Shown here in pieces: positions 27,061 to 40,495 of a DNA stretch of 64,000 nucleotides. The translations under genes were made by a program, and so were the position numbers. Source of the DNA: Minisyncoccota bacterium (GTDB lineage Bacteria; Patescibacteriota; Microgenomatia; UBA1400; PJMF01); contig VFLK01000033.1 of NCBI GenBank assembly GCA_009885085.1, forward strand, positions 7,135 to 71,134. The letters run 5' to 3'. Every line of letters begins with the position of its first letter. The stretch's first letter is position 1. The notes under the pieces were generated by a model. That model saw nothing but the letters and a program-made list of their open reading frames with translations, was not told where the DNA came from and searched no databases.

Positions 27061-27138
27061 ATTGCACTTGATGTTCGCTTCAACTTAGTGATACACTTTG
27101 TCATTAAGAGTACTAGTCTATACAATCGAGATTATCAT

Positions 27139-28482
27139 ATGGCACTTGTTAAACCCACAAACACAACTTTCGCAAAAATTAAAGTTATCGGTGTCGGTGG
27201 TGGTGGTGGAAATGCTGTTAACTCGATGATCGACTCTGAACAAATACATGGCGTTGAGTTTATTGCAGTTAATACTGATGCTCAGGCACTTCTAACTTCC
27301 AAAGCAGAAACTAAACTACAAATTGGCACAAATTTTACCAAGGGTTTGGGATCTGGAGCAGACCCTGAAGTTGGTAGAACTGCTGCCGAAGAATCATACG
27401 ACAAACTCAAAGATTTGCTTTTCGATACTGACATGGTTTTTATTACCGCTGGCATGGGTGGTGGCACTGGAACTGGTGCTTCATCGATAATCGCTGAGAT
27501 TGCACGTGAAGCCGGTGCATTAACTGTTGCTGTCGTTACAAAACCATTTGCATTTGAAGGTAAAAAAAGAATGGCAACAGCTGAAGAAGGTGTCGCCAGT
27601 CTTAAAGACACCGTCGATACATTGATTATCATTCCCAACCAAAGATTGATGGATGTGGTTGATAAAAAAATGACCTTTCTTGATGCTTTTAGGTTGGCTG
27701 ATAATGTTCTTGGCCAAGGTGTCCAAGGAATTTCCGATCTAATCACAGTTCCAGGACTTATTAATGTAGATTTCGCTGATGTTAAAACCATTATGTCTGA
27801 ATCTGGCTCGGCTTTAATGGGTATTGGAGAAGCTAGTGGAGAAAATAGAGCTGCAACTGCAGCAAGAATGGCAATCGCCTCGCCACTATTGGAAATTTCT
27901 ATAGATGGAGCCAAAGGCATCCTCTACAACATTATTGGTGGACCTGACATGGCCATGAGTGAAGTTTCAGATGCTTCGACAATTATTGCCAACGCTGCAG
28001 ATCCTGAAGCAAATATAATCTTTGGAGCTACGATCGACGAAACGATGGGGACAAAGATCAAAATTAGTGTGATCGCCACCGGGTTTGATAGTGATGATTT
28101 AAAATTACCTTCAAATAGACCTCTATTTGGCGCATATGGCAGAGACTCAAGAAATAGATTTAAACAGGAAGCAGAAGAGAAAAAAGAACCAGCTGCTTTA
28201 AAATATGACAGAACTCCAACCGGATTTACTCAACCTCTTTCGACAGCCCAAATTTCATCAACCAAAAATGATGAAGTTACTGAGCCTTTTGTAAAATCTC
28301 AAGCTTTTGGAGACAGAGTAAACAATAACACTGGCTTTAGAGCAGTCAATCCTTTGATTGAAAAATCTGATGATGACTCTGATACTAAATCAAAACCAGA
28401 AGAAAAAAAGAAGTCTATCTTAAGCGCATTTGAGGATGAGTTCGAAATTCCAGCTTTTTTAAGAAGAAATAAAAAAAGCTAA
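27139..28482 (+). CDS. ftsZ: cell division GTPase FtsZ
   Basis: [15 protein letters not shown] and GGGTGTGA tubulin signature, conserved C-terminal EIPAFLRR peptide; start chosen at the internal ATG (the ORF-track 27088 start is also possible). Confidence 0.9.
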
Positions 28483-28494
28483 TTTTAATCTTTT

Positions 28495-28586
28495 TATGAT
28501 TTGTTGTAACGTTAATTAGTTTCGCTAGATTTAGCGAATAATTGTAAATCAACGCTCCACAAGATTAACTTATACAACAAATCATA
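28495..28586. repeat. 14-bp perfect inverted repeat (tatgatttgttgta ... tacaacaaatcata) with 64-nt spacer containing an inner hairpin, downstream of ftsZ
   Basis: read directly. Confidence 0.6.
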
Positions 28587-28652
28587 AAATTTATTAACTC
28601 TATTTCTCACAAAAAAAATCTGAAATGTTCTATAATAAATAGAATTAGAGTG

Positions 28653-28726
28653 CGGGTATAGTTCATCGGTAGAATGCTAGCTTCCCAAGCTGGATAGAGG
28701 AGTTCGACTCTCCTTACCCGCTCCAA
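28653..28726 (+). tRNA. tRNA-Gly (anticodon CCC), CCA encoded
   Basis: manual cloverleaf: acceptor gcgggta/tacccgc, D-arm gttc/gaat, anticodon stem ctagc/gctgg, loop ttCCCaa, T-arm aggag-ttcgact-ctcct, discriminator t, CCA; TATAAT at about 28632 upstream. Confidence 0.85.
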
Positions 28727-29357: not shown

Positions 29358-29517
29358 CAAAAAATGCCAACCTCAATCTAAGTTTTTATCCAACTTCCTC
29401 ACCAATTCCAGCTTTCCAAAATGAGCTGACAAAATATAAAATCTCCAAGGATACTATCCAATATTCACTTTACACATCTTATTTACTTCCAGTCATAAAA
29501 AGTGTAGTTTTAAATAT

Positions 29518-31893
29518 ATGATATTAAATGATGCTAGAAATGTTGACCATCAATGGAATAGAAATTCAACAAAACAAGAAATTCTTGCTTCTGAAAAAGA
29601 TGATGCAGATATTATTGGCAATATATTGGAATTTACAGCAGATACAAAAATATTTTTAGCACACCTACGATATTCAAACGAAGAAGTTCTAAAAAAAATT
29701 GGCATCAAAACAAAAGACCAAATAGATGCTTGGACATCCTTCGTATATTCATCTATAGAATTATTTCACGGCCTAGCTACAAAAGGAAAAGGTGAATGGG
29801 GTATGACTTGGGGTTTAACAGCAAAAGATCCCAAAGATATTGAAAAGCTTCAAAATAAAGTCATAAACAGTATTGTTTATGAAACACTCAGAGATGTACA
29901 GCCTGGAAAAGAAAAACCAGCTATAAAATATGAGTACAAAACTAATAAAGATGGTAGCTTAAAGTCGGTTGAACCACTAGCTGACTCAAGACGTGACCCC
30001 ATTACCTTTCGCGTACTCAGAGGTGGGCCACCCCCACTAGATTTTATAGATATAAACATATCGATGAGTACAATTATTTCCTCAAATGCAAATACTGATA
30101 ACAAAGATATTAATCCGTTGGACATAATTCCCTGGAAAGGAATTATGGATGGCAACGAAAAAATACTTGAAATGCTTAAAACAATAACCGGTATCAAAAT
30201 TGGACCACCAAGATATCTTAAGGACTGGCATGAAGAGCCAGACGACGATGAAAATCATAAAACTGACAGAACAGGAGAATTTTTCAAACCTGATGTTTTG
30301 ATTGGCAAAGGTGATAAAAATTGGCGACTAACAAAATTTGGCAATGACGCAAGAATCATGATGTTGGCTGAGTATGGTGATAAGTTTGGAAGATCTGCTG
30401 CTATTAATGTTTCATTTGCTCAGCATGCCTCTGGAGATGGATTGGAGTTAATGGGCAGCGAATCAGCAAAAAAAGAAGACATGAAATCTGCCTATGACCA
30501 GACTCTTAAAAAACCAGAAATAAGAGAACTTTTAGACGAAAATGGCAAAGCAGAATCAGTCGAGGCACTTGAGTTAATTGGAGAATTTGAACCTCAAGTA
30601 TTGCCTTTCCATACACTCTTGTCTGCTAAATTTGGTCGGTTTGGGTTGGGTGACATGAGACAACAAATTGAGAGAAGAATTGCGGCAACCCAGTTTCAAA
30701 GTAAAGTCATGGCAAAATTTGGAGCAAGAGTTGATGCTATAAGAATACAAGTTGGAATTAAGTTAGACCCTGAGTTGACGGAGGCTTCCAGAAAAACAGT
30801 CAAACAAATCAAGGGAAAAGGTGTTGAAAAAATGAATGGATCTCTTTTAAATGCTATGGCACATCATCTGCATGCGGGCGAATCATGCGGCGTAATGATA
30901 CAACCAATAGAAGGTAGAACAACTCTCGTAACTGTGGGCAATAAGGTTTGGGAAAAATGGGAAAATGTCTGTGATAAATTTTCAAATGATGATCAAATAG
31001 ATAGGTTAAGAGCCTATCCAAGTATGAAAAATGGCATAAAAGTTATTAGGGATAGATTAAAAAACCTTCAATGGCTTCCAGATAGCAACGAACTTGATGA
31101 CTCAGAAACAAGCATGTGGCTAAATGAAAATATTCCAATAATAAAAAATATATTTTCTTTTGACAATGAACTTAGAAATCAGATTGAGCCGATCAGAAAT
31201 TCTGTAACAAACAGTGTAAATGAAATAACTGATGTTGATTCATTTTTAAAGAAAGTAAGAAATAAAAGCGGCGGTGTAGTCACAAATAAAAATGCCGAGT
31301 GGGACCTGAGTAGCATGACAAACAAAATGAACTTAATTATTACAAAAGCAAAAATGAATCCTAATACTCCTTTTTCAAAACTTATAATCCAAATTGATGA
31401 GACATTTAAAAATAGCAGTCAAAATGAATATCAAACAGAAGAATTTAGTAATAAAATTAAATCTCTAAACATCGCTGGAAAATTTTATCCGCTTAGAACT
31501 TTTTCACTAAATGTAAACCATGATCCAACAAGATCAAAAATAAATACAATTTTTCTTGCATGTGACCAACAAAAACTAGATGGTTTTGACTGGATACTTT
31601 CGGACACCGAACACAATGAAGAAGGATTTATCAAATCATTTGAAGCTGAGTTTGAAGACACTGCTAGTAGTATGGGAAACGTAGGTGATTTCTTTATTGA
31701 AGCTGGCAAAGACCCAAACCTAACTGCTCCTGCAATAAGTAGAGATTTGGGATTTCTAGCAGTCGTAGAAGGATGGGCAGTAAATCACACACCTAACACT
31801 GCTGCTGCAGCAAGGTCACAAATTTTTCGATCAGGGTTGCTTGAACCAGCAGACTCTGTTGGAACCGCCGTAGTCTTTCAAACAGCAACCTAA
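29518..31893 (+). CDS. large hypothetical protein (791 aa), first gene of the tRNA-Gly-adjacent operon; no TM, no P-loop, no recognisable domain
   Basis: long uninterrupted ORF; HHLHAGESCG His/Cys cluster; ends at a single TAA that is in frame with the next ORF. Confidence 0.6.
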   Translation: MILNDARNVDHQWNRNSTKQEILASEKDDADIIGNILEFTADTKIFLAHLRYSNEEVLKKIGIKTKDQIDAWTSFVYSSIELFHGLATKGKGEWGMTWGLTAKDPKDIEKLQNKVINSIVYETLRDVQPGKEKPAIKYEYKTNKDGSLKSVEPLADSRRDPITFRVLRGGPPPLDFIDINISMSTIISSNANTDNKDINPLDIIPWKGIMDGNEKILEMLKTITGIKIGPPRYLKDWHEEPDDDENHKTDRTGEFFKPDVLIGKGDKNWRLTKFGNDARIMMLAEYGDKFGRSAAINVSFAQHASGDGLELMGSESAKKEDMKSAYDQTLKKPEIRELLDENGKAESVEALELIGEFEPQVLPFHTLLSAKFGRFGLGDMRQQIERRIAATQFQSKVMAKFGARVDAIRIQVGIKLDPELTEASRKTVKQIKGKGVEKMNGSLLNAMAHHLHAGESCGVMIQPIEGRTTLVTVGNKVWEKWENVCDKFSNDDQIDRLRAYPSMKNGIKVIRDRLKNLQWLPDSNELDDSETSMWLNENIPIIKNIFSFDNELRNQIEPIRNSVTNSVNEITDVDSFLKKVRNKSGGVVTNKNAEWDLSSMTNKMNLIITKAKMNPNTPFSKLIIQIDETFKNSSQNEYQTEEFSNKIKSLNIAGKFYPLRTFSLNVNHDPTRSKINTIFLACDQQKLDGFDWILSDTEHNEEGFIKSFEAEFEDTASSMGNVGDFFIEAGKDPNLTAPAISRDLGFLAVVEGWAVNHTPNTAAAARSQIFRSGLLEPADSVGTAVVFQTAT

Positions 31894-31899
31894 GCTGGA

Positions 31900-32613
31900 G
31901 TGCCAGGACTTGGTGCAATGGGAAACAGCATGGCCATCGCTGACACCAGAGAAACATCTGGACTCAAGGAATCACTTGATCATCCTGCAAAAATGATGGA
32001 TGTATTATTGCCATGGTTGAGAGGAAATGAAAATGTAAAAACTGCTTTTAAAAATTTTCTTGGAGTAAACTTAGACATAGGTAACGAAAAAACAAAAGAA
32101 GAAAAGAATAATCGCAAAAAATTATCACTCTTTCAAAAAATGCTTTCTGAAGATGATTTTGCCTGTTTTAACGACAATAACTCAGAAAAAATTGTTAGAA
32201 GAAATGATTTAAGAATCTGGGGACCAAAAAGAGATGAAGAAAAAAGATTAACAGCTAGTGATTTAAGCGTCAGATATAAACATCATCTAGAGGGAGAACT
32301 TTTATTTGATATGTGGAATCAATTTATAGATGCAGTTGATCAAAATAAAGTAAAAATTGATGATAGAACAAAAGAATCTATCAAAAAATTTAACGGAACG
32401 GGTTTTAAAGAAATGTGGGGAGCAATGATAAAGTTTAGAGCTTTAGACATGCAACATCAAACCGCAAAAGCAAATCTGATCATGAGACTGTGGTTAAATC
32501 CCCATGATCACGATGAGTCTTCGTGGGAAATTTATGTAAGACAATTTAACACTGCAAGAGAATCCTATCGAAACATGGAAAAGGTATTTTCAGTTTTTGG
32601 GAAAGAATACTAA
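31900..32613 (+). CDS. hypothetical protein (237 aa), in the same frame as the upstream ORF and separated from it by one TAA plus two codons; possible C-terminal extension or split gene
   Basis: GTG 31900 (or ATG 31918) start; no convincing spaced SD; frame identity with 29518..31893 computed from coordinates. Confidence 0.5.
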   Translation: MPGLGAMGNSMAIADTRETSGLKESLDHPAKMMDVLLPWLRGNENVKTAFKNFLGVNLDIGNEKTKEEKNNRKKLSLFQKMLSEDDFACFNDNNSEKIVRRNDLRIWGPKRDEEKRLTASDLSVRYKHHLEGELLFDMWNQFIDAVDQNKVKIDDRTKESIKKFNGTGFKEMWGAMIKFRALDMQHQTAKANLIMRLWLNPHDHDESSWEIYVRQFNTARESYRNMEKVFSVFGKEY

Positions 32614-32615
32614 TC

Positions 32616-34739
32616 ATGATTTACGAACCTGATGGCTCATTATCTAACCTAACACTTCCAAGAGATGAAGTGTTAATTGCAATCTATGAAAAACAGAATG
32701 AAGCTTTATTCCTAATTCTTGGAGCTGACAAACCACCAATATTCACTAAAGAATTTGCCGCCAAAGAGTTAGCAATTCAACCACAAGAAACTCCAGGATT
32801 ACTAAAAAGAATTTGGTTTGAAAAGGATGAAAAAAATAAGACGTATAAATTGTGCGGTGTAGGGAAGTGGGGAGGTCAAAATTCAAAACTTGCAGAAATA
32901 TCTATAAATCTTGATATGGAAGAAGCAAATCGACTAATGAGTCTAGCTTCTAATAATAGAATTGAAGAGATAAACTCCTTATCAAATAATTCTGAATTAG
33001 CAAAAACCCCAAAAATTGAAAATTACAGAAAAATGCTAGAAGAAGCTGAAAAAATATTTTTTGCAATGCTAACAGATTATTCTGGAAAAATTGTAGTTGA
33101 TGAAACTGAAAGTGAAAAAAGTAAAAAAAGCTCTGAAGTAAAAAAGGATACGGCGCCTTTAGACACAATTGATGTTCAAATCATGCCAACTGAGAAAACT
33201 GATAAAAAAGATCTACTAAACAAATTAGCTGAAACTATGGAGCTTCGGGTGTTATTTTTAAATAGAAATAACAACGAAATTTCTTACGCTGATATATCCG
33301 AAGTTATAAAATTATTAGTAAATCCAGAAAATGTTGAAAAATATTTTAATAATTTAGGAATTGGCTCAGATGTCATTAGTGAAAAGGAACATTTTGAAAA
33401 TGAACTAAAAAAAATGACGAATGAGTATGCCAGCGGAAAAGTTAAAAACTTGCAAACAATTTTGGAAACAAGAAAACAAAATCAGCTCCAAACAATTTCG
33501 CAGATGATTAATACAATTGTTGAACAAATACCAATGCTTGCTAAAAGTCCAAAAACTTTTGACATTATAAAAAATGCTATGGATCTTGATAATGACTTAG
33601 CCGAGCAACTTGTCAAAGAATATAACGAAACTTCCACAATATCATTTGAAACTGTTTTCGATAATCTCGAAGGTGCAACTGAGTTATTTGAAGCAAAAGT
33701 ATTAGAAATAATTCTAGCAGATTATGAGGATCAAATTAATTCGCTAAAAATTGAATTTAATAAAATAATAGCTTCGCAGACAATCTCAAGGTGTATTGAG
33801 TGGGCCCAACCTCCTTTTTCTACTCCAGTTGATTCAAATATTCAACTCAACGTAGATCCTACTTTATTAGATCAAGCAATTAAATTTTCGTTTAGTCCAG
33901 AAAAGTGGGATATTAATTTAGTTACTTATGCACTAAATAACACTAGACATTCAGATGGCGAAATTGGAAGTAAAATACCAGGCAATAATATTTCAGGACT
34001 ACGAAAAACTAGAGAGAAATTAGATGACTATTTAAAACAGATGGTTGAAAAAAGTAATACGGAAAGTTTTGGTGCTCAATTTAAAGCCTGGATGAAAAAA
34101 TACAGCGATGGAAATATTAACCCAGATTATTACTTATTAAGTTTTACCTCGGTTTTAAAAACACCTTGGAAAAAACTTGAAGAAGAAATCTGGAAAAAAA
34201 CAATGGCCGAGTGGTTAAAATCAAATAAAGAAAAACTAAAAGCCATTGTTACTAACGAACTTAGTAAAAAAGGTGGCGCAATAGATGAAATCAAAAGTCA
34301 TGATAAAGCGATAGCAAAATCAACTGAAATATGGTTTAAATGGCGTCATGAATTGAAAAAAATATTACAAGAAAAATCACTAAATGCTCAAACGGATGTT
34401 GATATTCTAGTTGACTGGTCGCTAAAACAACAATACCCTGACGATAGAATGAAAACAAAAACAAATGAAGTTGCAATTGATTGGGATAAGGACAAAGAAC
34501 TGATAGAAAAACTTAAAGTTGATCATCTAAGAATTTGGAATATAATTTTTCACACCAGAAATATTGCCAAAAGTCTCAACTTAGGTATAGACACAAATGT
34601 TGTTCAATGGCTAAAAAGAATTTCTTTTCAAGCAAAAATGAGCAATCATTATGGATCAGATACTTTTCTCACAAGCGAAGGTGTGGAGTGGAGAGAAAAT
34701 ATTGAGGCCAAAGCCAAAGAAACAACTTCACAAAAATGA
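32616..34739 (+). CDS. large hypothetical protein (707 aa), K/E-rich and probably mostly alpha-helical, no TM or P-loop
   Basis: starts 2 nt after the upstream stop; stop overlaps the next start (ATGA). Confidence 0.6.
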   Translation: MIYEPDGSLSNLTLPRDEVLIAIYEKQNEALFLILGADKPPIFTKEFAAKELAIQPQETPGLLKRIWFEKDEKNKTYKLCGVGKWGGQNSKLAEISINLDMEEANRLMSLASNNRIEEINSLSNNSELAKTPKIENYRKMLEEAEKIFFAMLTDYSGKIVVDETESEKSKKSSEVKKDTAPLDTIDVQIMPTEKTDKKDLLNKLAETMELRVLFLNRNNNEISYADISEVIKLLVNPENVEKYFNNLGIGSDVISEKEHFENELKKMTNEYASGKVKNLQTILETRKQNQLQTISQMINTIVEQIPMLAKSPKTFDIIKNAMDLDNDLAEQLVKEYNETSTISFETVFDNLEGATELFEAKVLEIILADYEDQINSLKIEFNKIIASQTISRCIEWAQPPFSTPVDSNIQLNVDPTLLDQAIKFSFSPEKWDINLVTYALNNTRHSDGEIGSKIPGNNISGLRKTREKLDDYLKQMVEKSNTESFGAQFKAWMKKYSDGNINPDYYLLSFTSVLKTPWKKLEEEIWKKTMAEWLKSNKEKLKAIVTNELSKKGGAIDEIKSHDKAIAKSTEIWFKWRHELKKILQEKSLNAQTDVDILVDWSLKQQYPDDRMKTKTNEVAIDWDKDKELIEKLKVDHLRIWNIIFHTRNIAKSLNLGIDTNVVQWLKRISFQAKMSNHYGSDTFLTSEGVEWRENIEAKAKETTSQK

Positions 34740-37207
34740 TAAGTCGAGAAACAAGCAAACCACAATCCCGCAACGATTTTCTATCGATTCCTGGTCTTGA
34801 TGAAAGAGCACAAGCAACAATTTTTGCCAAAGAAATAGAATTATTGCCTCCAAGAATGCGAAATTATATTGCTATTTTGATGCGAGAAAATAGCAGAGCT
34901 GGCATATTTAAAAAAAGACAATCTGAAGAAAATCTTACAGCACTACTTGAGCCAGCTAGAGAACTGATTAGTTTGTTACATATAACTGAAAATATGCCAG
35001 AGGTTGTGGAAAACCTCCATATCAGGTGGGCAAAAATTATTGAAACTCAACCATATAATGAAAAAACAAGACGAAGAGATATAAGAGAAATATGGTTAGA
35101 TATAATTGAAAAAGGTGTTAAAACCGCGCAAACAACATTTATCTGCAGAGAAATTAGAGACCGAATGATCTCCAGAAGCTATCTCGATAAACCCAGTCAG
35201 GCAATTTCCAAATTTGATACAGAAATACTAAATAAATTAGCTGCCTGGTGCTATGAAGCCCAAGGAGATAAATATAAAGTTGAAAATGGTTACCAGCTAT
35301 TTAAAGAAGATTTGGGAAAAATACTAGAAATTTCACAAGATACTGGCATATCGGCAGAAAATTATTTTAATCACAGAGACAAATCCATAATGCCATGGTT
35401 TTTTATGCTGTTGGTTGGTGATAATTCTGAATTTAGTAAATTCATGTATGAAAAAATAGGCAATAAAGAATCAATGAGACCACACATAAACCTTGGAGTG
35501 ACAGGTATTGATATAGCATTAGGCGAGAATGGACTTGAAGAAAGACCAGACGATCTTTACAAACGTCTTGCTGATCTTTTATATCCTGACGGCTATCCAG
35601 AAGGAATTAAAGGAAAAATTAAAAATTCAGAACAAAGAAGTATTTTTATTGAGAAAGGCAGCGAACTTAAGTGTAAAGTAGCAGACCCAGGTTCAGACTC
35701 ATATGAAAGAGCTTATATCAAAAAGGAAATTGAAATCCTAAAAACTGATTTCCAAGATGATGGCATAGAAATGCACGACAATTTTGGCTATGAAAAACCA
35801 GCTCTTTTTATGTCCTTAGATATTAATTTAATGTCTGATCTCATGGGAATAACTGGTAGCTGGACCAAGTGGCTTGAAGCAATGGCCCATATTAGAGAAC
35901 AAGAAACAACTTGCAACATACCAATTTCTCCAGATGAAGCATTAACTTTGATGAACTGGGATTTAGAGTCTGATTTAAAAAATAAAATCCTCACAAAAGC
36001 AATGCTGATTGCTCATTTCAATAGAGCTGCTGGCTTAGAACAACATCACGGCTATGGAGGAAATAAAAATATTTATAATGATCAATTTTGGGCTAGACTA
36101 GCTTACAATTTATCATTGCCAGAAAATAAAGATGGAGCTCACACTTTGACTCCAGAAATATTAGCTAAAATTTCAGAATCTTCTCAGGACGAAGAAGAAA
36201 TGGCGCAAAAACTTGGATTCTTACTCTCTGGCAGAGTTACTACAATTAATCTCAGTGTGATGGGTGCAAATAGAACTGGAAAAGATGAACAAGCAAGTAC
36301 GATGGAAAGTTCTTCGTATGCAGTCACAGAATCTTGCAGAGCTTATGGCCTTTATGAGCAAGGAAAAGATCCTAAGCCAACAGTTGCTTCTGGACATTCC
36401 ATGGGTGCTCAAATTTTAGAAAGAGCTTTGTTACTTTTGCCTCAAAGTGTAAGAAATTGGGTTGACTTTCTTTCCGTAACTGGAGTCTATACAAGTGAAA
36501 TGAGTGCAATGTCTTTTCTTAAAAAAGGAATGAATAAACTTCACCCATTATTAATTAAACTTGTAACAAATAAGAACATTACTAAACAACAGTTGGGGAA
36601 ATTTATGTCAGGCGCTGGAGAAATCTTACCAATTAAAAAAATAATACTAAAAGGCGCCACCTATTCTCAAGCCAGAACACCAATGGATTTCAAGATTGGA
36701 TTACCAATTGCAGCGGCGCATGAAATAAGTTTGAATTCAGCTCCAGAATATTTATTAGGACAAATGGGAGCAATTGATAACAGCAAAGATAGACATTCAT
36801 TTGATGAACTTGCGTCAACAATATCTACATTTGGTAAAGACATGGTAACAAGAACGGTTGGACGAATTGATTCTGTCCTACATCCTGGAAAATCAATGAG
36901 GGCTCTAAAAAATTCAGACAAAAATATTAGAATAAAAGATTTTGATAAAATGACTATTCCTGAAATGGTTAAGTGGGTAAATGAGACTGAAGTGAATACT
37001 GGTGAACCAATTGAAGTTATCCTGGCTAAAGTTCCACACTACATACAAACGACTGAACTAGGTAGATGGTTGATTAGATTGCAACACATGAAAAAACTAA
37101 AATTACATACTTATGGATATAGAAAAAAAGGTGAAAATTCAGAAGCAACTCAAAATATCAGCAATACAACAAGATCAATTACCGAATTATTTATGGGGAG
37201 AAATTAA
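34736..37207 (+). CDS. large hypothetical protein (823 aa) with a GHSMG (GxSxG nucleophile-elbow-like) motif; candidate serine hydrolase or acyltransferase domain
   Basis: ATGA overlap with the upstream gene; GHSMG encoded at 36392..36406 in frame. Confidence 0.55.
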   Translation: MISRETSKPQSRNDFLSIPGLDERAQATIFAKEIELLPPRMRNYIAILMRENSRAGIFKKRQSEENLTALLEPARELISLLHITENMPEVVENLHIRWAKIIETQPYNEKTRRRDIREIWLDIIEKGVKTAQTTFICREIRDRMISRSYLDKPSQAISKFDTEILNKLAAWCYEAQGDKYKVENGYQLFKEDLGKILEISQDTGISAENYFNHRDKSIMPWFFMLLVGDNSEFSKFMYEKIGNKESMRPHINLGVTGIDIALGENGLEERPDDLYKRLADLLYPDGYPEGIKGKIKNSEQRSIFIEKGSELKCKVADPGSDSYERAYIKKEIEILKTDFQDDGIEMHDNFGYEKPALFMSLDINLMSDLMGITGSWTKWLEAMAHIREQETTCNIPISPDEALTLMNWDLESDLKNKILTKAMLIAHFNRAAGLEQHHGYGGNKNIYNDQFWARLAYNLSLPENKDGAHTLTPEILAKISESSQDEEEMAQKLGFLLSGRVTTINLSVMGANRTGKDEQASTMESSSYAVTESCRAYGLYEQGKDPKPTVASGHSMGAQILERALLLLPQSVRNWVDFLSVTGVYTSEMSAMSFLKKGMNKLHPLLIKLVTNKNITKQQLGKFMSGAGEILPIKKIILKGATYSQARTPMDFKIGLPIAAAHEISLNSAPEYLLGQMGAIDNSKDRHSFDELASTISTFGKDMVTRTVGRIDSVLHPGKSMRALKNSDKNIRIKDFDKMTIPEMVKWVNETEVNTGEPIEVILAKVPHYIQTTELGRWLIRLQHMKKLKLHTYGYRKKGENSEATQNISNTTRSITELFMGRN

Positions 37208-37240: not shown

Positions 37241-37575
37241 AAATCCGCTTGAGTTCTGCCACATAATGTGGATATCACAGAACAAGGTGAGGGAAGAACA
37301 TTTTGATGTTTTGTTAATTAGCTCAAAAAAAAGCCTGATAACAAAACAAAAAATAACTAGATCTCTCCGGGTAAGCCCGTAATTGCTGCAAACAAGAGAT
37401 TTGGTTTTTAAATCGCAACTTTTTATGCCCAAAGCATAATAAATTGCATTTCTTCCAAATAAATAGAGGTGGTACCGCCACACTCAACATAAAGTTGAAT
37501 TGAAGGCCCTCTTATAACTAGTTTAAATCGTGCGTCGTGCGTATGAAATGAGCTAGTTATAAGTGGGCTTTTTTG
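37241..37575 (+). ncRNA. T-box riboswitch leader of ileS
   Basis: AUC specifier followed by A at 37274..37277; T-box consensus match AAAUAGAGGUGGUACCGCC at 37461..37479; antiterminator pairing AGAGG/CCUCU and GCC/GGC; 15-bp terminator stem 37507..37521 / 37553..37567 followed by CTTTTTT, overlapping the antiterminator 3' strand. Confidence 0.7.
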
Positions 37576-37597: not shown

Positions 37598-40495
37598 ATG
37601 CCTAAACTAAAAGAAATGCCTCTCAGACCAAATTTAGCTGAACTCGAAGAATCAGTTCTTGAATATTGGCAAAAAAATAAATCTTTCGAAAAATCTGTCG
37701 AAATGAGAGATAAAAGTAAGTCCTATGTTTTTTATGATGGACCTCCATTTGCCACTGGTTTGCCACATTATGGTCATCTGCTTGGCAGTACTTCCAAAGA
37801 CGTGGTGCCTAGATACTGGACCATGAAGGGCTATCGAGTTGAGAGAGTCTGGGGCTGGGATTGTCACGGTCTTCCAATCGAGAACATGATAGAGAAACAA
37901 CTGGATATCAAAGGCGGTAAAAAGGGGATTGAAGCTCTTGGAATCGATAAATTTAATCAGGCATGTCATACCGAGGTTTTACGTTTAGATGGTGCATGGA
38001 AAACGATCATCGATCGCCTGGGTCGTTGGGTCGATTTTGAAAATAATTATAAAACCATGGACACAACCTACATGGAATCAGTTTGGTGGGGTTTTAAACA
38101 ATTAGTTGATAAAGATTTAGTTTATCAAGGCAAAAAAATTGTGATGTACTGTCCACGTTGCTCGACACCATTGTCAAACTTCGAGATCGCCATGGACAAC
38201 TCATACGAAGATGTAGAGGATTTTTCAGTCTATATTAAATTTAAAATAGTAGAAAAAGACCTGACTTCAAAAAATAGCAATGAATATCTCATAGCCTGGA
38301 CCACAACACCTTGGACTCTTCCAGGAAATGTCGGTTTAGCAGTCAATTCAAAAGCAGATTATGTTCAGGTTGAATACGTTTCACAGGAAACAAAAGAAAC
38401 CGAACTACTTTGGGTAGCCAAAGATTTAGTTGAAAAAGTTTTTGAAAACAAAGAATACACCGTTCAAAAAACCGTTAAAGGCAGTGAATTAGTAGGCAAA
38501 CACTATCAACCACTTTTTGATTACATAAATTCAGATACAGACGGCGCAAAAAATAAACCAAATGCCTGGTCAGTTTTAGATGCTAATTTTGTCAGTATGG
38601 AAGATGGTACTGGAATCGTTCACACCGCGGCAATTTTTGGAGAAGATGACTATGCTCTGGCTCTCGAAAAAGATTTGCCATTAATTCCAACTCTTAGTGA
38701 TGAAGGAAAATTCTTACCTTTTGTAGAAATAGTTGCTGGTAAATTTTACAAAAGTGCAGAAAAACCAATCAACGCAGATCTAACCAAACGTGGGCTCATG
38801 TTTAAAGAAGGTAAAATTACTCACTCATATCCATTCTGTTATCGTTGCTCAACACCACTTTATTACAATGCAGTTCCAGCCTGGTATATCAATGTTCAAA
38901 AACTAAAAAATGAGTTACTTAAGCAAAATGAAAAAATGAATTGGTACCCTGAGTATCTGAAGGAAGGCCGTTTTGGTAAAGGCCTGGAAACTGCACCGGA
39001 TTGGAATATTTCCAGATCTAGGTATTGGGGTACTCCTATGCCAGTCTGGATTTCTAATGATGAGCTAAAAGGAGAAACCAAAGTCGGTGGCTATAAAAAA
39101 CTTAGAGTTATCGAATCAGTAGCAGAACTAAAAAAATGGGCAGTCGATCCAAAGCAAGTGGAAAATTTAACCGATCTTCATCGAGAATTTTTAGATAATT
39201 TAGAAGTTTGGATTGATGATGACAAAACAATTAAGGGAAGTAGAATACCTGAGGTTTTTGACTGTTGGGTTGAGTCAGGTTCAATGCCGTTTGCTTCAAA
39301 ACATTATCCATTTGAAAATAAAGAAGAGTTTGAAAGTACATATCCCGCTCAATTCGTCAGTGAATATATTGCCCAAACCAGAGCTTGGTTCTATACCATG
39401 CACGTTATCTCAGTTGGAATTTTTGGTAAAAATGCAGTTGAAAATACATTGACGACTGGGACCATTTTGGCAGAAGACGGCAATAAAATGAGTAAGTCAA
39501 AGAAAAACTACCCAGATCCAATGCTACTGATAAATGAGTATGGAGTTGATAGTTTAAGACTTTATCTCATGAGTTCAACTGTGATGAAATCTGAAAACTT
39601 GAATTTTAGCGAACGAGAAGTATCTGATATTCGTAAAAAAGTTTTCTTGATCTGGTGGAATATGTTTGCTTTCTACAAGTTATACGCAAAAAAAGACTCT
39701 AAAGTTTCTTTAACCGAAGTTCCAACCTCTGATGATGTGATGGACAAATGGGTCTTGAGCAGACTCAATACCTTAATTAAAGATGTGACTGAGTATATGG
39801 ATGACTACAATCTCATCAAAGCAAGTCGAGAACTAATGAATTTTGTAGATGAATTGTCTACCTGGTATCTTAGAAGAAGTCGAGATCGCTTGCGTAACTC
39901 TTCAAGCCCATCTTTAACTGTGTTCGGATATGTTTTAGTCAAGCTATCACAATTATTTGCTCCAATAACTCCATTTTTTAGTGAAACTATGTGGCACAAT
40001 TTAGTTGATGACAAAACCAGTGTGCATCATACAGATTGGCCAATTGTTGATGAAAATTTAATTCATAAAACACTTGAAGACAAAATGGATAATGTAAGAA
40101 AAGTAGTTGAAAAAACTCTTTCACTTAGAAGTGAGGCAGGAATCAAGGTTCGTCAACCATTAGCAAAAATTACATGTTTCGTGACCGGAGACTCACCTAA
40201 AGAAAATTTGTTGGAAGTTCTTGCTGACGAAGTTAATGTCAAAAAAGTAGAGTGGAAAAGAACAACTGAAACTTTGCGAGTAATTCTAGATACAGATCTT
40301 ACTGACGAATTAAAATCCGAAGGTGATGCAAGAGAACTGATGAGAAATATTCAAAAATTAAGAAAAAAAGCTGGCCTTCAAGTAAATGACGCTATAACTG
40401 TAGAAGTTCCAGAGTGGCCAAAGAAATGGGAAACTGAAATTGAAAAAAAGACAGGATCCAAACTTGTCAAAGGAAATGAGCTGAAAATAGTTTAG
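37598..40495 (+). CDS. ileS: isoleucyl-tRNA synthetase
   Basis: PPFATGLPHYGHLLG (HIGH) ... WDCHGLPIE and KMSKS (GNKMSKSKKN) motifs, 965 aa. Confidence 0.9.
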   Translation: MPKLKEMPLRPNLAELEESVLEYWQKNKSFEKSVEMRDKSKSYVFYDGPPFATGLPHYGHLLGSTSKDVVPRYWTMKGYRVERVWGWDCHGLPIENMIEKQLDIKGGKKGIEALGIDKFNQACHTEVLRLDGAWKTIIDRLGRWVDFENNYKTMDTTYMESVWWGFKQLVDKDLVYQGKKIVMYCPRCSTPLSNFEIAMDNSYEDVEDFSVYIKFKIVEKDLTSKNSNEYLIAWTTTPWTLPGNVGLAVNSKADYVQVEYVSQETKETELLWVAKDLVEKVFENKEYTVQKTVKGSELVGKHYQPLFDYINSDTDGAKNKPNAWSVLDANFVSMEDGTGIVHTAAIFGEDDYALALEKDLPLIPTLSDEGKFLPFVEIVAGKFYKSAEKPINADLTKRGLMFKEGKITHSYPFCYRCSTPLYYNAVPAWYINVQKLKNELLKQNEKMNWYPEYLKEGRFGKGLETAPDWNISRSRYWGTPMPVWISNDELKGETKVGGYKKLRVIESVAELKKWAVDPKQVENLTDLHREFLDNLEVWIDDDKTIKGSRIPEVFDCWVESGSMPFASKHYPFENKEEFESTYPAQFVSEYIAQTRAWFYTMHVISVGIFGKNAVENTLTTGTILAEDGNKMSKSKKNYPDPMLLINEYGVDSLRLYLMSSTVMKSENLNFSEREVSDIRKKVFLIWWNMFAFYKLYAKKDSKVSLTEVPTSDDVMDKWVLSRLNTLIKDVTEYMDDYNLIKASRELMNFVDELSTWYLRRSRDRLRNSSSPSLTVFGYVLVKLSQLFAPITPFFSETMWHNLVDDKTSVHHTDWPIVDENLIHKTLEDKMDNVRKVVEKTLSLRSEAGIKVRQPLAKITCFVTGDSPKENLLEVLADEVNVKKVEWKRTTETLRVILDTDLTDELKSEGDARELMRNIQKLRKKAGLQVNDAITVEVPEWPKKWETEIEKKTGSKLVKGNELKIV

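What the first reader, a model, noticed from the sequence alone, without database searches (positions are those of the whole stretch)
36392..36406. GHSMG nucleophile-elbow-like motif in the 823-aa protein
G-H-S-M-G is the classic GxSxG pentapeptide of alpha/beta-hydrolases, lipases, thioesterases and acyltransferases (the AT-domain GHSxG). It is the only enzyme-like signature I can see in the four-gene block. It hints that the system has hydrolytic or acyl-transfer chemistry, as in lipase-type effectors or patatin-like defence proteins. I did not identify a downstream Asp/His triad.
Basis: partly seen in the sequence, partly recalled or inferred. Interest (0 to 1): 0.5.

Follow-up and report, generated by a model that had tools for sequence, protein, structure and literature searches.

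The report
Orphan serine hydrolase in CPR cassette
The GHSMG motif is the real active-site "nucleophile elbow" of a previously unrecognised, very rare alpha/beta-hydrolase enzyme carried on an accessory gene cassette in a tiny-celled (CPR/Patescibacteria) bacterium; the enzyme class is ordinary, while its substrate and the cassette's role remain unknown.

The parts
34736..37207 (+). 823-aa two-domain protein: N-terminal helical domain plus C-terminal alpha/beta-hydrolase
   Evidence: ORF; dN/dS 0.18 against the L001 ortholog; AF2 model pLDDT 74.1, pTM 0.79. No signal peptide or TM segment (max Kyte-Doolittle 19-residue window 1.18).
34793..35485 (+). N-terminal all-helical domain (residues ~20-250), specific to this family
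   Evidence: Helices 21-242 in the model. Least conserved part of the family (18% mean pairwise identity), but with invariant E125, Y173, F189, G228 and P249. No family or PDB sequence match.
35501..35695 (+). Low-confidence insert (residues ~256-320), largely deleted in most distant relatives
   Evidence: pLDDT below 50; mostly gapped in P0004-P0009.
35798..37120 (+). alpha/beta-hydrolase domain (residues ~355-795): eight core strands (357-364, 390-397, 432-437, 501-506, 549-554, 576-581, 704-709, 760-764)
36047..36061 (+). Oxyanion-hole loop H438-G439-Y440-G441-G442, directly after strand 432-437 (beta3 position)
   Evidence: Family pattern [HA]-G-[FY]-G-[GAS] with G439 and G441 invariant. 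In P0007 the Pfam Abhydrolase_6 match starts at residue 456 (profile position 2) and covers HGFGA at 459.
36392..36406 (+). Nucleophile elbow G553-H-S555-M-G557; Ser555 codon TCC at 36398-36400
   Evidence: H554, S555 and M556 invariant in 9 of 9 sequences. Strand 549-554, then Ser, then helix 556-567; pLDDT about 90. hhalign puts S555 in register with the catalytic Ser94 of P. fluorescens esterase (not significant).
36506..36835 (+). Helical cap/lid inserted between strands 576-581 and 704-709 (residues ~591-700), with invariant His662 (36719-36721)
   Evidence: Helices 593-700; H662 invariant. The position equals that of the cap domain in capped alpha/beta-hydrolases (established knowledge of the fold).
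36869..36871 (+). Asp712, candidate catalytic acid, in G-R-I-D-S-V-L after strand 704-709
   Evidence: G709, D712 and L715 invariant; pLDDT about 88.
37037..37039 (+). His768, candidate catalytic base, in P-H-Y after strand 760-764
   Evidence: H768 and Y769 invariant, followed by invariant G776-R777; pLDDT about 92.
29518..32613 (+). First cassette gene: ~1031-aa protein of unknown fold, here read as 791-aa and 237-aa ORFs in one frame split by TAA at 31891-31893
   Evidence: A single 1031-aa ORF in L001 (TCT Ser at the stop position) and a single 946-aa ORF in L007. Homologous to the L007 946-aa protein, phmmer E 2e-39 and tblastn 3e-36. dN/dS 0.125. AF2 model failed, pLDDT 33.6.
32616..34739 (+). 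Second cassette gene: 707-aa charged, soluble protein of unknown function; its stop overlaps the start of the hydrolase gene (ATGA)
   Evidence: ORF; 77% identical ortholog in L001, dN/dS 0.22. ATGA overlap at 34736-34739. Not detectably related to the 560-aa gene at the same position in L007 (hhalign probability 0.4%).
28652..28725 (+). tRNA-Gly(CCC) after ftsZ: the conserved left landmark of the variable region that holds the cassette
   Evidence: ARAGORN and Rfam. The same tRNA follows ftsZ in L001, L013, L014, L015 and L018.

Best explanation
GHSMG is the nucleophile elbow of a catalytically competent serine alpha/beta-hydrolase that forms the C-terminal ~440 residues of a soluble 823-aa protein. 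Shown: Ser555 sits on the sharp turn between a core strand and a helix. Asp712 follows the next-to-last core strand and His768 the last, which is the canonical Ser-Asp-His order. An H-G-Y-G-G loop after the third strand occupies the oxyanion-hole position, and a ~110-residue helical cap carrying invariant His662 is inserted where substrate-pocket caps sit. All these residues are invariant in a family that is otherwise only 20-31% identical. Inferred from the chemistry of the superfamily: His768, oriented by Asp712, activates Ser555 to attack an ester, thioester or amide carbonyl. The backbone NH groups of Met556 and Tyr440 stabilise the oxyanion. The acyl-enzyme is then resolved by water (hydrolysis) or by an acceptor (acyl transfer). 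My commitment on substrate, which is inference only: a lipid-like or aryl carboxylic ester handled inside the cell or at the inner membrane face. I base this on the nearest solved folds being aryl esterases, phospholipase A PlaF and monoglyceride lipases, on the lipase-like family consensus GHSMGGQ, and on the absence of a signal peptide. In a CPR bacterium, which as a group lacks complete lipid synthesis and is rich in lysolipids, this could be acquired-lipid remodelling. The gene is the last of a translationally coupled three-gene accessory cassette (1031 aa, 707 aa, 823 aa) sitting in a variable region after tRNA-Gly(CCC) between ftsZ and ileS. The large first protein co-occurs with the hydrolase in a distant lineage too, so the two probably work together. 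Sub-claim confidences: active Ser-Asp-His alpha/beta-hydrolase about 0.9; esterase/lipase on a lipid-like substrate about 0.35; functional partnership with the 1031-aa protein about 0.5.
Against: No curated model (Pfam, NCBIfam, PADLOC, PHROGs) reaches threshold on the window protein, and sequence-only links to alpha/beta-hydrolases are individually non-significant. The tools did not expose model coordinates, so the Ser-His-Asp distances were not measured; the triad rests on topology plus invariance. The alignment behind the model has only 9 sequences. Nothing measured here discriminates esterase/lipase from thioesterase, S33-type peptidase or MetX-like acyltransferase, all of which appear among the structural hits. 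Four of the eight family lineages (L004, L008, L009, L011) show no homolog of the 1031-aa partner within 10 kb, and two (L003, L010) have a different, unrelated 1085-aa divergent neighbour. The enzyme therefore does not strictly need this partner. The middle gene is not demonstrably conserved. The lipid-remodelling idea rests on general CPR biology, not on this genome.
Confidence: 0.85

Rival explanations
1. Same fold and triad, but a different reaction class. The protein could be an alpha/beta-fold acyltransferase (like homoserine O-acetyltransferase MetX or deacetylcephalosporin C acetyltransferase, which also have large helical lids), a thioesterase, or an S33-type aminopeptidase, rather than a lipid or aryl esterase.
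Confidence: 0.3
2. The cassette is a conflict system, either anti-phage defence or an antagonistic/host-directed toxin. In this reading the alpha/beta-hydrolase is a lipolytic effector, and the 1031-aa and 707-aa proteins act as sensor, regulator or immunity components.
For: The cassette is accessory: absent from 80 related genomes and inserted in a variable region after a tRNA gene. The family is extremely rare and patchy, about 11 sequences among ~15 billion. The cassette's synonymous divergence from L001 (dS 0.5-0.7) is 2-3 times lower than that of the flanking ftsZ and ileS (1.5-1.7), which is compatible with more recent exchange. The partners are large orphan proteins.
Against: No PADLOC, PHROG or Pfam hit to any defence, toxin or immunity family. 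No NTPase, nuclease or sensor motif was found. No integrase or other mobility gene is present in the cassette. No relatives were found on viral contigs. There is no signal peptide or secretion-related neighbour. Homologs in other lineages sit among cell-envelope sugar, sortase/pilin and housekeeping genes, not in defence islands.
Confidence: 0.25
3. The motif belongs to a FabD-like acyltransferase (AT) domain or a patatin-like phospholipase, the other GxSxG folds named by the first reader.
For: GHSxG is the AT-domain signature, and GxSxG also occurs in patatins (established knowledge). That is the only support.
Confidence: 0.02
4. The motif is a chance GxSxG, or the domain is a dead pseudo-enzyme used as a scaffold.
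For: The bare pattern has about a 20% chance of occurring in this protein. A second GxSxG in the neighbouring 791-aa ORF is clearly chance. No curated family recognises the protein.
Against: The Ser and both its neighbours, the Asp, the His and the oxyanion glycines are all among only 26 invariant positions at 20-31% identity. Pseudo-enzymes typically lose these residues. The elbow region is the most conserved segment and is nearly 100% identical to the 85%-identical ortholog.
Confidence: 0.04

Closest known systems
Capped Abhydrolase_1/6-type carboxylesterases and aryl esterases (e.g. Burkholderia cenocepacia putative aryl esterase 4x00; Pseudomonas fluorescens esterase 1va4)
   Different: Only 10-15% sequence identity, and below every Pfam gathering score. 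The core is expanded to about 440 residues with long helical insertions, and it is preceded by a ~230-residue helical domain and a disordered insert that these ~270-residue enzymes lack. Substrate unknown.
Lipolytic alpha/beta-hydrolases: phospholipase A PlaF (6i8w), Acinetobacter Lip1 (4opm), monoglyceride lipases and ABHD6 (7ots, 6eic, 7l4w)
   Different: PlaF is membrane-anchored, whereas this protein has no TM segment. No significant sequence relationship. Lipolytic activity here is an inference, not a test.
PGAP1-like / DUF676-type GHSMGG serine esterases (Pfam PF07819)
   Same: Two members give weak PGAP1 hits centred on the elbow (E 6.6e-3 and 0.027). Same GHSMGG-type motif.
   Different: Scores of 14.6-16.7 bits are below the 24.3-bit gathering score, and the window protein itself gives no hit. 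The match covers only about 50-70 residues.
Alpha/beta-fold acyltransferases with large lids (homoserine O-acetyltransferase MetX, 5w8o/6iog; DAC acetyltransferase 2vat)
   Same: Foldseek E 1.4e-4 to 7e-4 over 400-450 aligned columns. Same triad, with a large helical lid between beta6 and beta7.
   Different: No methionine or cephalosporin pathway context. TM normalised to the target is lower (0.42-0.51) than for the esterases. No sequence similarity.

Membership tests
alpha/beta-hydrolase fold superfamily | Central, mostly parallel eight-stranded sheet flanked by helices | tested here: met
alpha/beta-hydrolase fold superfamily | Nucleophile in a Sm-x-Nu-x-Sm 'elbow' on the tight turn between strand beta5 and the following helix | tested here: met
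   G553-H-S555-M-G557; strand 549-554, Ser555, helix 556-567. H-S-M invariant in 9 of 9.
alpha/beta-hydrolase fold superfamily | Catalytic acid after strand beta7 and catalytic His after strand beta8, in the sequence order Nu-acid-His | tested here: met
   D712 three residues after strand 704-709, and H768 four residues after strand 760-764; both invariant.
alpha/beta-hydrolase fold superfamily | Triad side chains within hydrogen-bonding distance in three dimensions | not testable with these tools
   Model coordinates are not exposed, so no distances could be measured.
alpha/beta-hydrolase fold superfamily | Oxyanion-hole loop (HG-x type) directly after strand beta3 | tested here: met
   H438-G439-Y440-G441-G442 after strand 432-437; family pattern [HA]-G-[FY]-G-[GAS]. 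The Pfam Abhydrolase_6 alignment of P0007 starts at this loop.
Pfam Abhydrolase_6 (PF12697) / Abhydrolase_1 (PF00561) / Hydrolase_4 (PF12146) / PGAP1 (PF07819) | Score at or above the curated gathering threshold | tested here: not met
   The window protein has no hit at E<=1. The best member, P0008, scores 22.8 bits against a 26.3 cut-off for Abhydrolase_6 and 16.7 against 24.3 for PGAP1. I file it in the superfamily by fold, not in any of these sequence families.
Patatin-like phospholipases | Patatin fold with a Ser-Asp dyad (GxSxG plus DGA/G) and a Gly-rich oxyanion motif; Pfam Patatin match | tested here: not met
   No Pfam hit to any family in the window protein, and no patatin model among the member hits. 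No patatin among the top structural matches. A His-containing triad in alpha/beta-hydrolase topology is present instead.
FabD-like acyltransferase (AT) domains | GHSxG on the FabD fold with a ferredoxin-like subdomain and a Ser-His dyad; Pfam Acyl_transf_1 match | tested here: not met
Known anti-phage defence systems (PADLOC-DB v2) | A match of any cassette protein to a defence-system model | tested here: not met
   Only a Cas8g model at E 0.45 on the 707-aa protein, which is noise. A weak, sub-threshold BrxC/D Pfam hit on 33 residues of the 237-aa ORF (17.4 bits against 22.2).

The most novel reading that the evidence does not exclude
The 1031-aa, 707-aa and 823-aa genes form a new, horizontally exchanged CPR-specific conflict or host-interaction module. 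In it an orphan giant protein targets or regulates a lipolytic alpha/beta-hydrolase effector, for example to attack or harvest host or competitor membrane lipids, or to trigger abortive infection. It would be unrelated in sequence to any catalogued defence or effector system.
Probability: 0.2. Interest if true: 0.6.

Novelty: new member of a known kind. Interest (0 to 1): 0.3.

Why it matters
It turns one of four 'hypothetical' ORFs into a protein with a defined fold, a named catalytic Ser/Asp/His and an oxyanion loop. That makes it directly testable by an S555A mutant, serine-hydrolase probes and ester or lipid substrate panels. It also defines a tiny, previously unannotated alpha/beta-hydrolase family, so far seen only in CPR-like metagenomic contigs, that current family databases miss. 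CPR bacteria are thought to depend on lipids taken from other cells, so a cytoplasmic lipase-like enzyme on an accessory cassette is a reasonable candidate for lipid remodelling or for an interaction factor, though that link is unproven. For a specialist the enzyme class itself is unsurprising.

Tried and rejected
1. Curated libraries on all cassette proteins (Pfam, NCBIfam, PADLOC, PHROGs, PDB sequences) gave nothing at or above threshold.

2. Word-indexed homology searches returned only the self hit and the 84% ortholog, even with profile queries.

3. Pattern scans of the public collections with the family alignment found no relatives: GTDB genomes, IMG/VR and JGI metagenomes. The 9-sequence alignment was too divergent to make patterns from.

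5. AF2 of the 1031-aa partner failed (pLDDT 33.6), so no fold search was run on it.

6. The AFDB50 fold library was unavailable.

7. The middle genes (707 aa here, 560 aa in L007) show no detectable homology. The 1085-aa divergent neighbour found in L003 and L010 is unrelated to the 1031-aa partner.

8. I considered a terminal inverted repeat flanking the cassette (29494-29514 / 37407-37427; 17 of 21 complementary; 1 of 40 shuffles reached this). The downstream arm is not conserved in L001, so I rejected it as a mobile-element end.

9. Promoter and terminator scans across the cassette were at background level.

10. I considered the GESCG in the 791-aa ORF as a second active site and rejected it, because it is not conserved in L007.
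Full report
**Observation**

Window 36392-36406 reads GGA CAT TCC ATG GGT, which is G553-H554-S555-M556-G557. It is in frame with the 823-aa ORF 34736..37207 on the + strand.

As a bare pattern this is weak. The expectation from composition is 0.23 GxSxG per protein of this size, and 20% of shuffles contain one. The 51 long ORFs of the window (19,111 residues) contain eight GxSxG, including ones in MurG and FtsA. It is not conserved in that protein's distant homolog, so it serves as a built-in example of a chance hit.

**Who else has it**

No curated library recognises the protein or its neighbours. This holds for Pfam, NCBIfam, PADLOC, PHROGs and PDB sequences.

- The word-indexed search finds only the self hit and one 84%-identical ortholog from a Candidatus Woesebacteria MAG, GCA_018000035.1.
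- An exhaustive HMMER pass over 1.84 billion cluster representatives finds eight clusters in all. The seven non-self ones are 23-31% identical and 674-832 aa long.
- Those clusters stand for about 11 distinct sequences among roughly 15 billion, and none carries a name.
- Pattern scans of GTDB genomes, IMG/VR and JGI metagenome contigs add nothing.

**The decisive alignment**

In the nine-sequence alignment only 26 of 823 positions are invariant. Several of them are catalytic-type residues:

- H554-S555-M556, giving the family pattern [GTM]-H-S-M-[GSM].
- D712, within G-x-x-D-x-[VI]-L.
- H768-Y769.
- G439 and G441, within [HA]-G-[FY]-G-[GAS].
- H662.

The elbow-to-next-strand segment is the most conserved part of the family, at 34% mean pairwise identity against 18% for the N-terminal domain. 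It is also nearly 100% identical between the two Woesebacteria orthologs, which are 85% identical overall.

**Structure**

AlphaFold2 on this alignment gives a usable model, with mean pLDDT 74.1, pTM 0.79, and 88-92 at the catalytic elements. The layout is as follows:

| Element | Residues |
|---|---|
| All-helical N-terminal domain | ~20-250 |
| Low-confidence insert, largely absent from most distant relatives | ~256-320 |
| Eight-stranded alpha/beta core | ~355-795 |

Within the core, four features stand out:

- Ser555 lies exactly on the turn between strand 549-554 and helix 556-567.
- The H438-G-Y-G-G loop follows strand 432-437.
- A block of helices at 593-700 is inserted between strands 576-581 and 704-709, which is the cap position.
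- D712 follows strand 704-709, and H768 follows strand 760-764.

This is the canonical alpha/beta-hydrolase order (established knowledge of the fold): oxyanion loop after beta3, nucleophile after beta5, acid after beta7 and His after beta8.

**Fold searches**

- Foldseek against the PDB gives 63 hits at E<=1e-3. The 50 listed are alpha/beta-hydrolase-fold proteins or fusions containing one, including esterases, monoglyceride lipases, haloperoxidases and MetX-type acetyltransferases.
- The viral structure library returns only generic giant-virus alpha/beta-hydrolases.
- No FabD-like or patatin-like structure appears among the top hits.

**Independent sequence-level hints**

These agree with the fold but are sub-threshold. 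Two members hit Pfam Abhydrolase_6 (best 1.6e-4; 22.8 bits against a 26.3-bit cut-off), PGAP1 and Hydrolase_4. In P0007 the Abhydrolase_6 match spans both the HG loop (residue 459) and the elbow (residue 572). A PDB profile search aligns the elbow with 'igHSMGGq' of a triacylglycerol lipase at E 0.58.

**What I could not do**

The tools do not expose model coordinates. The triad therefore rests on topology plus invariance, not on measured distances.

**Context**

The organism is a CPR/Patescibacteria bacterium. The gene order in the window is:

- murA-mraY-ftsW-murG-ftsQ-ftsA-ftsZ
- tRNA-Gly(CCC) at 28652-28725
- a 146-aa ORF
- the 791-aa and 237-aa ORFs, then the 707-aa gene, then the 823-aa gene
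- a weak T-box-like leader
- ileS, then rodA

The 791- and 237-aa ORFs are one gene. They share a frame and are separated only by a TAA at 31891-31893. The ortholog in L001 reads TCT (Ser) at that position and encodes a single 1031-aa protein, and a 25%-identical homolog in L007 is a single 946-aa ORF spanning both parts. The part after the stop still shows purifying selection. So this is a three-gene cassette, not a four-gene block.

The genes are tightly packed, and the 707- and 823-aa genes overlap by ATGA. All three are under purifying selection, with dN/dS of 0.13-0.22. None has a signal peptide or a TM-grade hydrophobic segment.

**The cassette is accessory**

I anchored on FtsZ and fetched 80 related Patescibacteria genomes.

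- 68 have ileS directly downstream of ftsZ on the same strand. The median gap is 722 bp, 32 gaps are 500 bp or less, and the maximum is 6.5 kb. Here the gap is 9,116 bp.
- None of the 80 has a tblastn hit to any cassette protein.
- The tRNA-Gly(CCC) after ftsZ is conserved in the close relatives checked, while what follows it varies. L013, at 95% FtsZ identity, carries an unrelated membrane protein there.
- DNA homology with L001 runs through ftsZ and the tRNA, breaks for about 660 bp, then resumes just upstream of the cassette and continues into ileS and rodA.
- Synonymous divergence of the cassette genes (dS 0.49-0.70) is two to three times lower than that of the flanking ftsZ (1.49) and ileS (1.69). 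This is compatible with more recent exchange of the cassette, but it is not proof.
- No integrase or other mobility gene is present. A flanking 21-nt inverted repeat is not conserved in L001.

**Partners across the family**

- L007 repeats the co-directional order of large protein, middle protein and hydrolase. Its large protein is homologous to the window's (E 2e-39), but its middle protein is not detectably related.
- L003 and L010 instead share a different 1085-aa protein transcribed divergently from the hydrolase gene (36% identity, E 1.5e-38). It is unrelated to the 1031-aa partner.
- L004, L008, L009 and L011 show neither partner. Their neighbours are sugar-nucleotide epimerases and glycosyltransferases, sortase and pilin-like genes, dockerin proteins or housekeeping genes.
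- AF2 of the 1031-aa partner failed at pLDDT 33.6, so its function remains unknown.

**Mechanism**

*Shown:* a canonical, fully conserved Ser-Asp-His and oxyanion apparatus on an alpha/beta-hydrolase fold with a helical cap.

*Inferred from superfamily chemistry:* His768 and Asp712 activate Ser555. An acyl-enzyme forms, with the oxyanion held by the backbone NH groups of Met556 and Tyr440. Deacylation is by water or by an acceptor.

*Inferred more weakly (about 0.35):* a lipid-like or aryl ester substrate handled intracellularly. The basis is the nearest folds, the lipase-like GHSMGGQ consensus and the lack of an export signal. [quoted passage not shown]

*Alternatives not excluded:* acyltransferase, thioesterase or S33 peptidase chemistry (about 0.3), and an effector role in a new conflict module (about 0.25).

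*Rejected:* a chance motif or pseudo-enzyme, a FabD-type AT domain, and patatin.

**Verdict**

The protein is a new, very rare sequence family within a very well-known enzyme superfamily, so I classify it as a new member of a known kind. It sits on an accessory three-gene cassette of otherwise opaque giant proteins. Interest is modest at 0.3. The enzyme class is ordinary. The open part is what the cassette does, and that is now testable through Ser555.

Noticed in passing
window 31891-31893 (between ORFs 29518-31893 and 31900-32613): An in-frame TAA splits what is a single 1031-aa protein in the ortholog (TCT Ser in L001) and a single 946-aa protein in L007. The downstream 237-aa part is still under purifying selection. 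It could be a very recent nonsense mutation, an assembly or sequencing error, or a tolerated split.
   Followed up: partly
window 28652-28725, and L001, L013, L014, L015, L018: tRNA-Gly(CCC) immediately after ftsZ is conserved in related Patescibacteria. The stretch between it and ileS is a variable-cargo hotspot: the median ftsZ-ileS gap is 722 bp in 68 genomes, up to 6.5 kb, and 9.1 kb here. Even the window and L001 differ just after the tRNA (a 146-aa orphan ORF here, a DUF1801 gene in L001).
   Followed up: yes
window 29518-37207 against flanks 27088-28482 and 37598-40495: Synonymous divergence from the L001 orthologs is 0.49-0.70 for the three cassette genes but 1.49 for ftsZ and 1.69 for ileS. 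This suggests the cassette was exchanged or recombined between the two lineages more recently than the flanks diverged, or that the Nei-Gojobori estimate is biased by composition.
   Followed up: partly
window 37281-37514 (+), with hairpin 37503-37571: A T-box-leader-like match upstream of ileS (Rfam RF00230, 24 bits against a gathering score of 93, E 0.044), overlapped at its 3' end by a 32-nt imperfect hairpin that could be its terminator/antiterminator. Sub-threshold, so possibly a divergent CPR T-box.
   Followed up: no
L003:43-3300 (-) and L010:1-924 (-): In two other lineages the hydrolase homolog is transcribed divergently from a ~1085-aa orphan protein. The two copies are homologous to each other (36% identity, E 1.5e-38) and unrelated to the window's 1031-aa partner, so this is a second recurrent giant-protein neighbour of the family.
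   Followed up: partly
It is replaced by LRAQG in the L007 homolog, so it is a chance occurrence.
   Followed up: yes
window 29494-29514 and 37407-37427: A 21-nt inverted repeat (17 of 21 complementary) brackets the cassette, and only 1 of 40 shuffles reached this level. The downstream arm is not conserved in L001, so it is probably chance or a lineage-specific relic.
   Followed up: yes
window 28492-28508 and 28573-28589: A perfect 17-nt inverted repeat with 64 nt between the arms, starting 10 nt after the ftsZ stop codon and ending before the tRNA-Gly. Function unknown.
   Followed up: no
L016-L092 record titles: Many GTDB records whose FtsZ is 66-80% identical to this CPR FtsZ, with the same ftsZ-ileS-rodA synteny, are titled 'uncultured Pseudomonadales bacterium'. 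One is titled 'Vitreimonas', one 'Limisphaerales' and one 'Methylococcaceae'. These titles look like mislabelled Patescibacteria MAGs.
   Followed up: no
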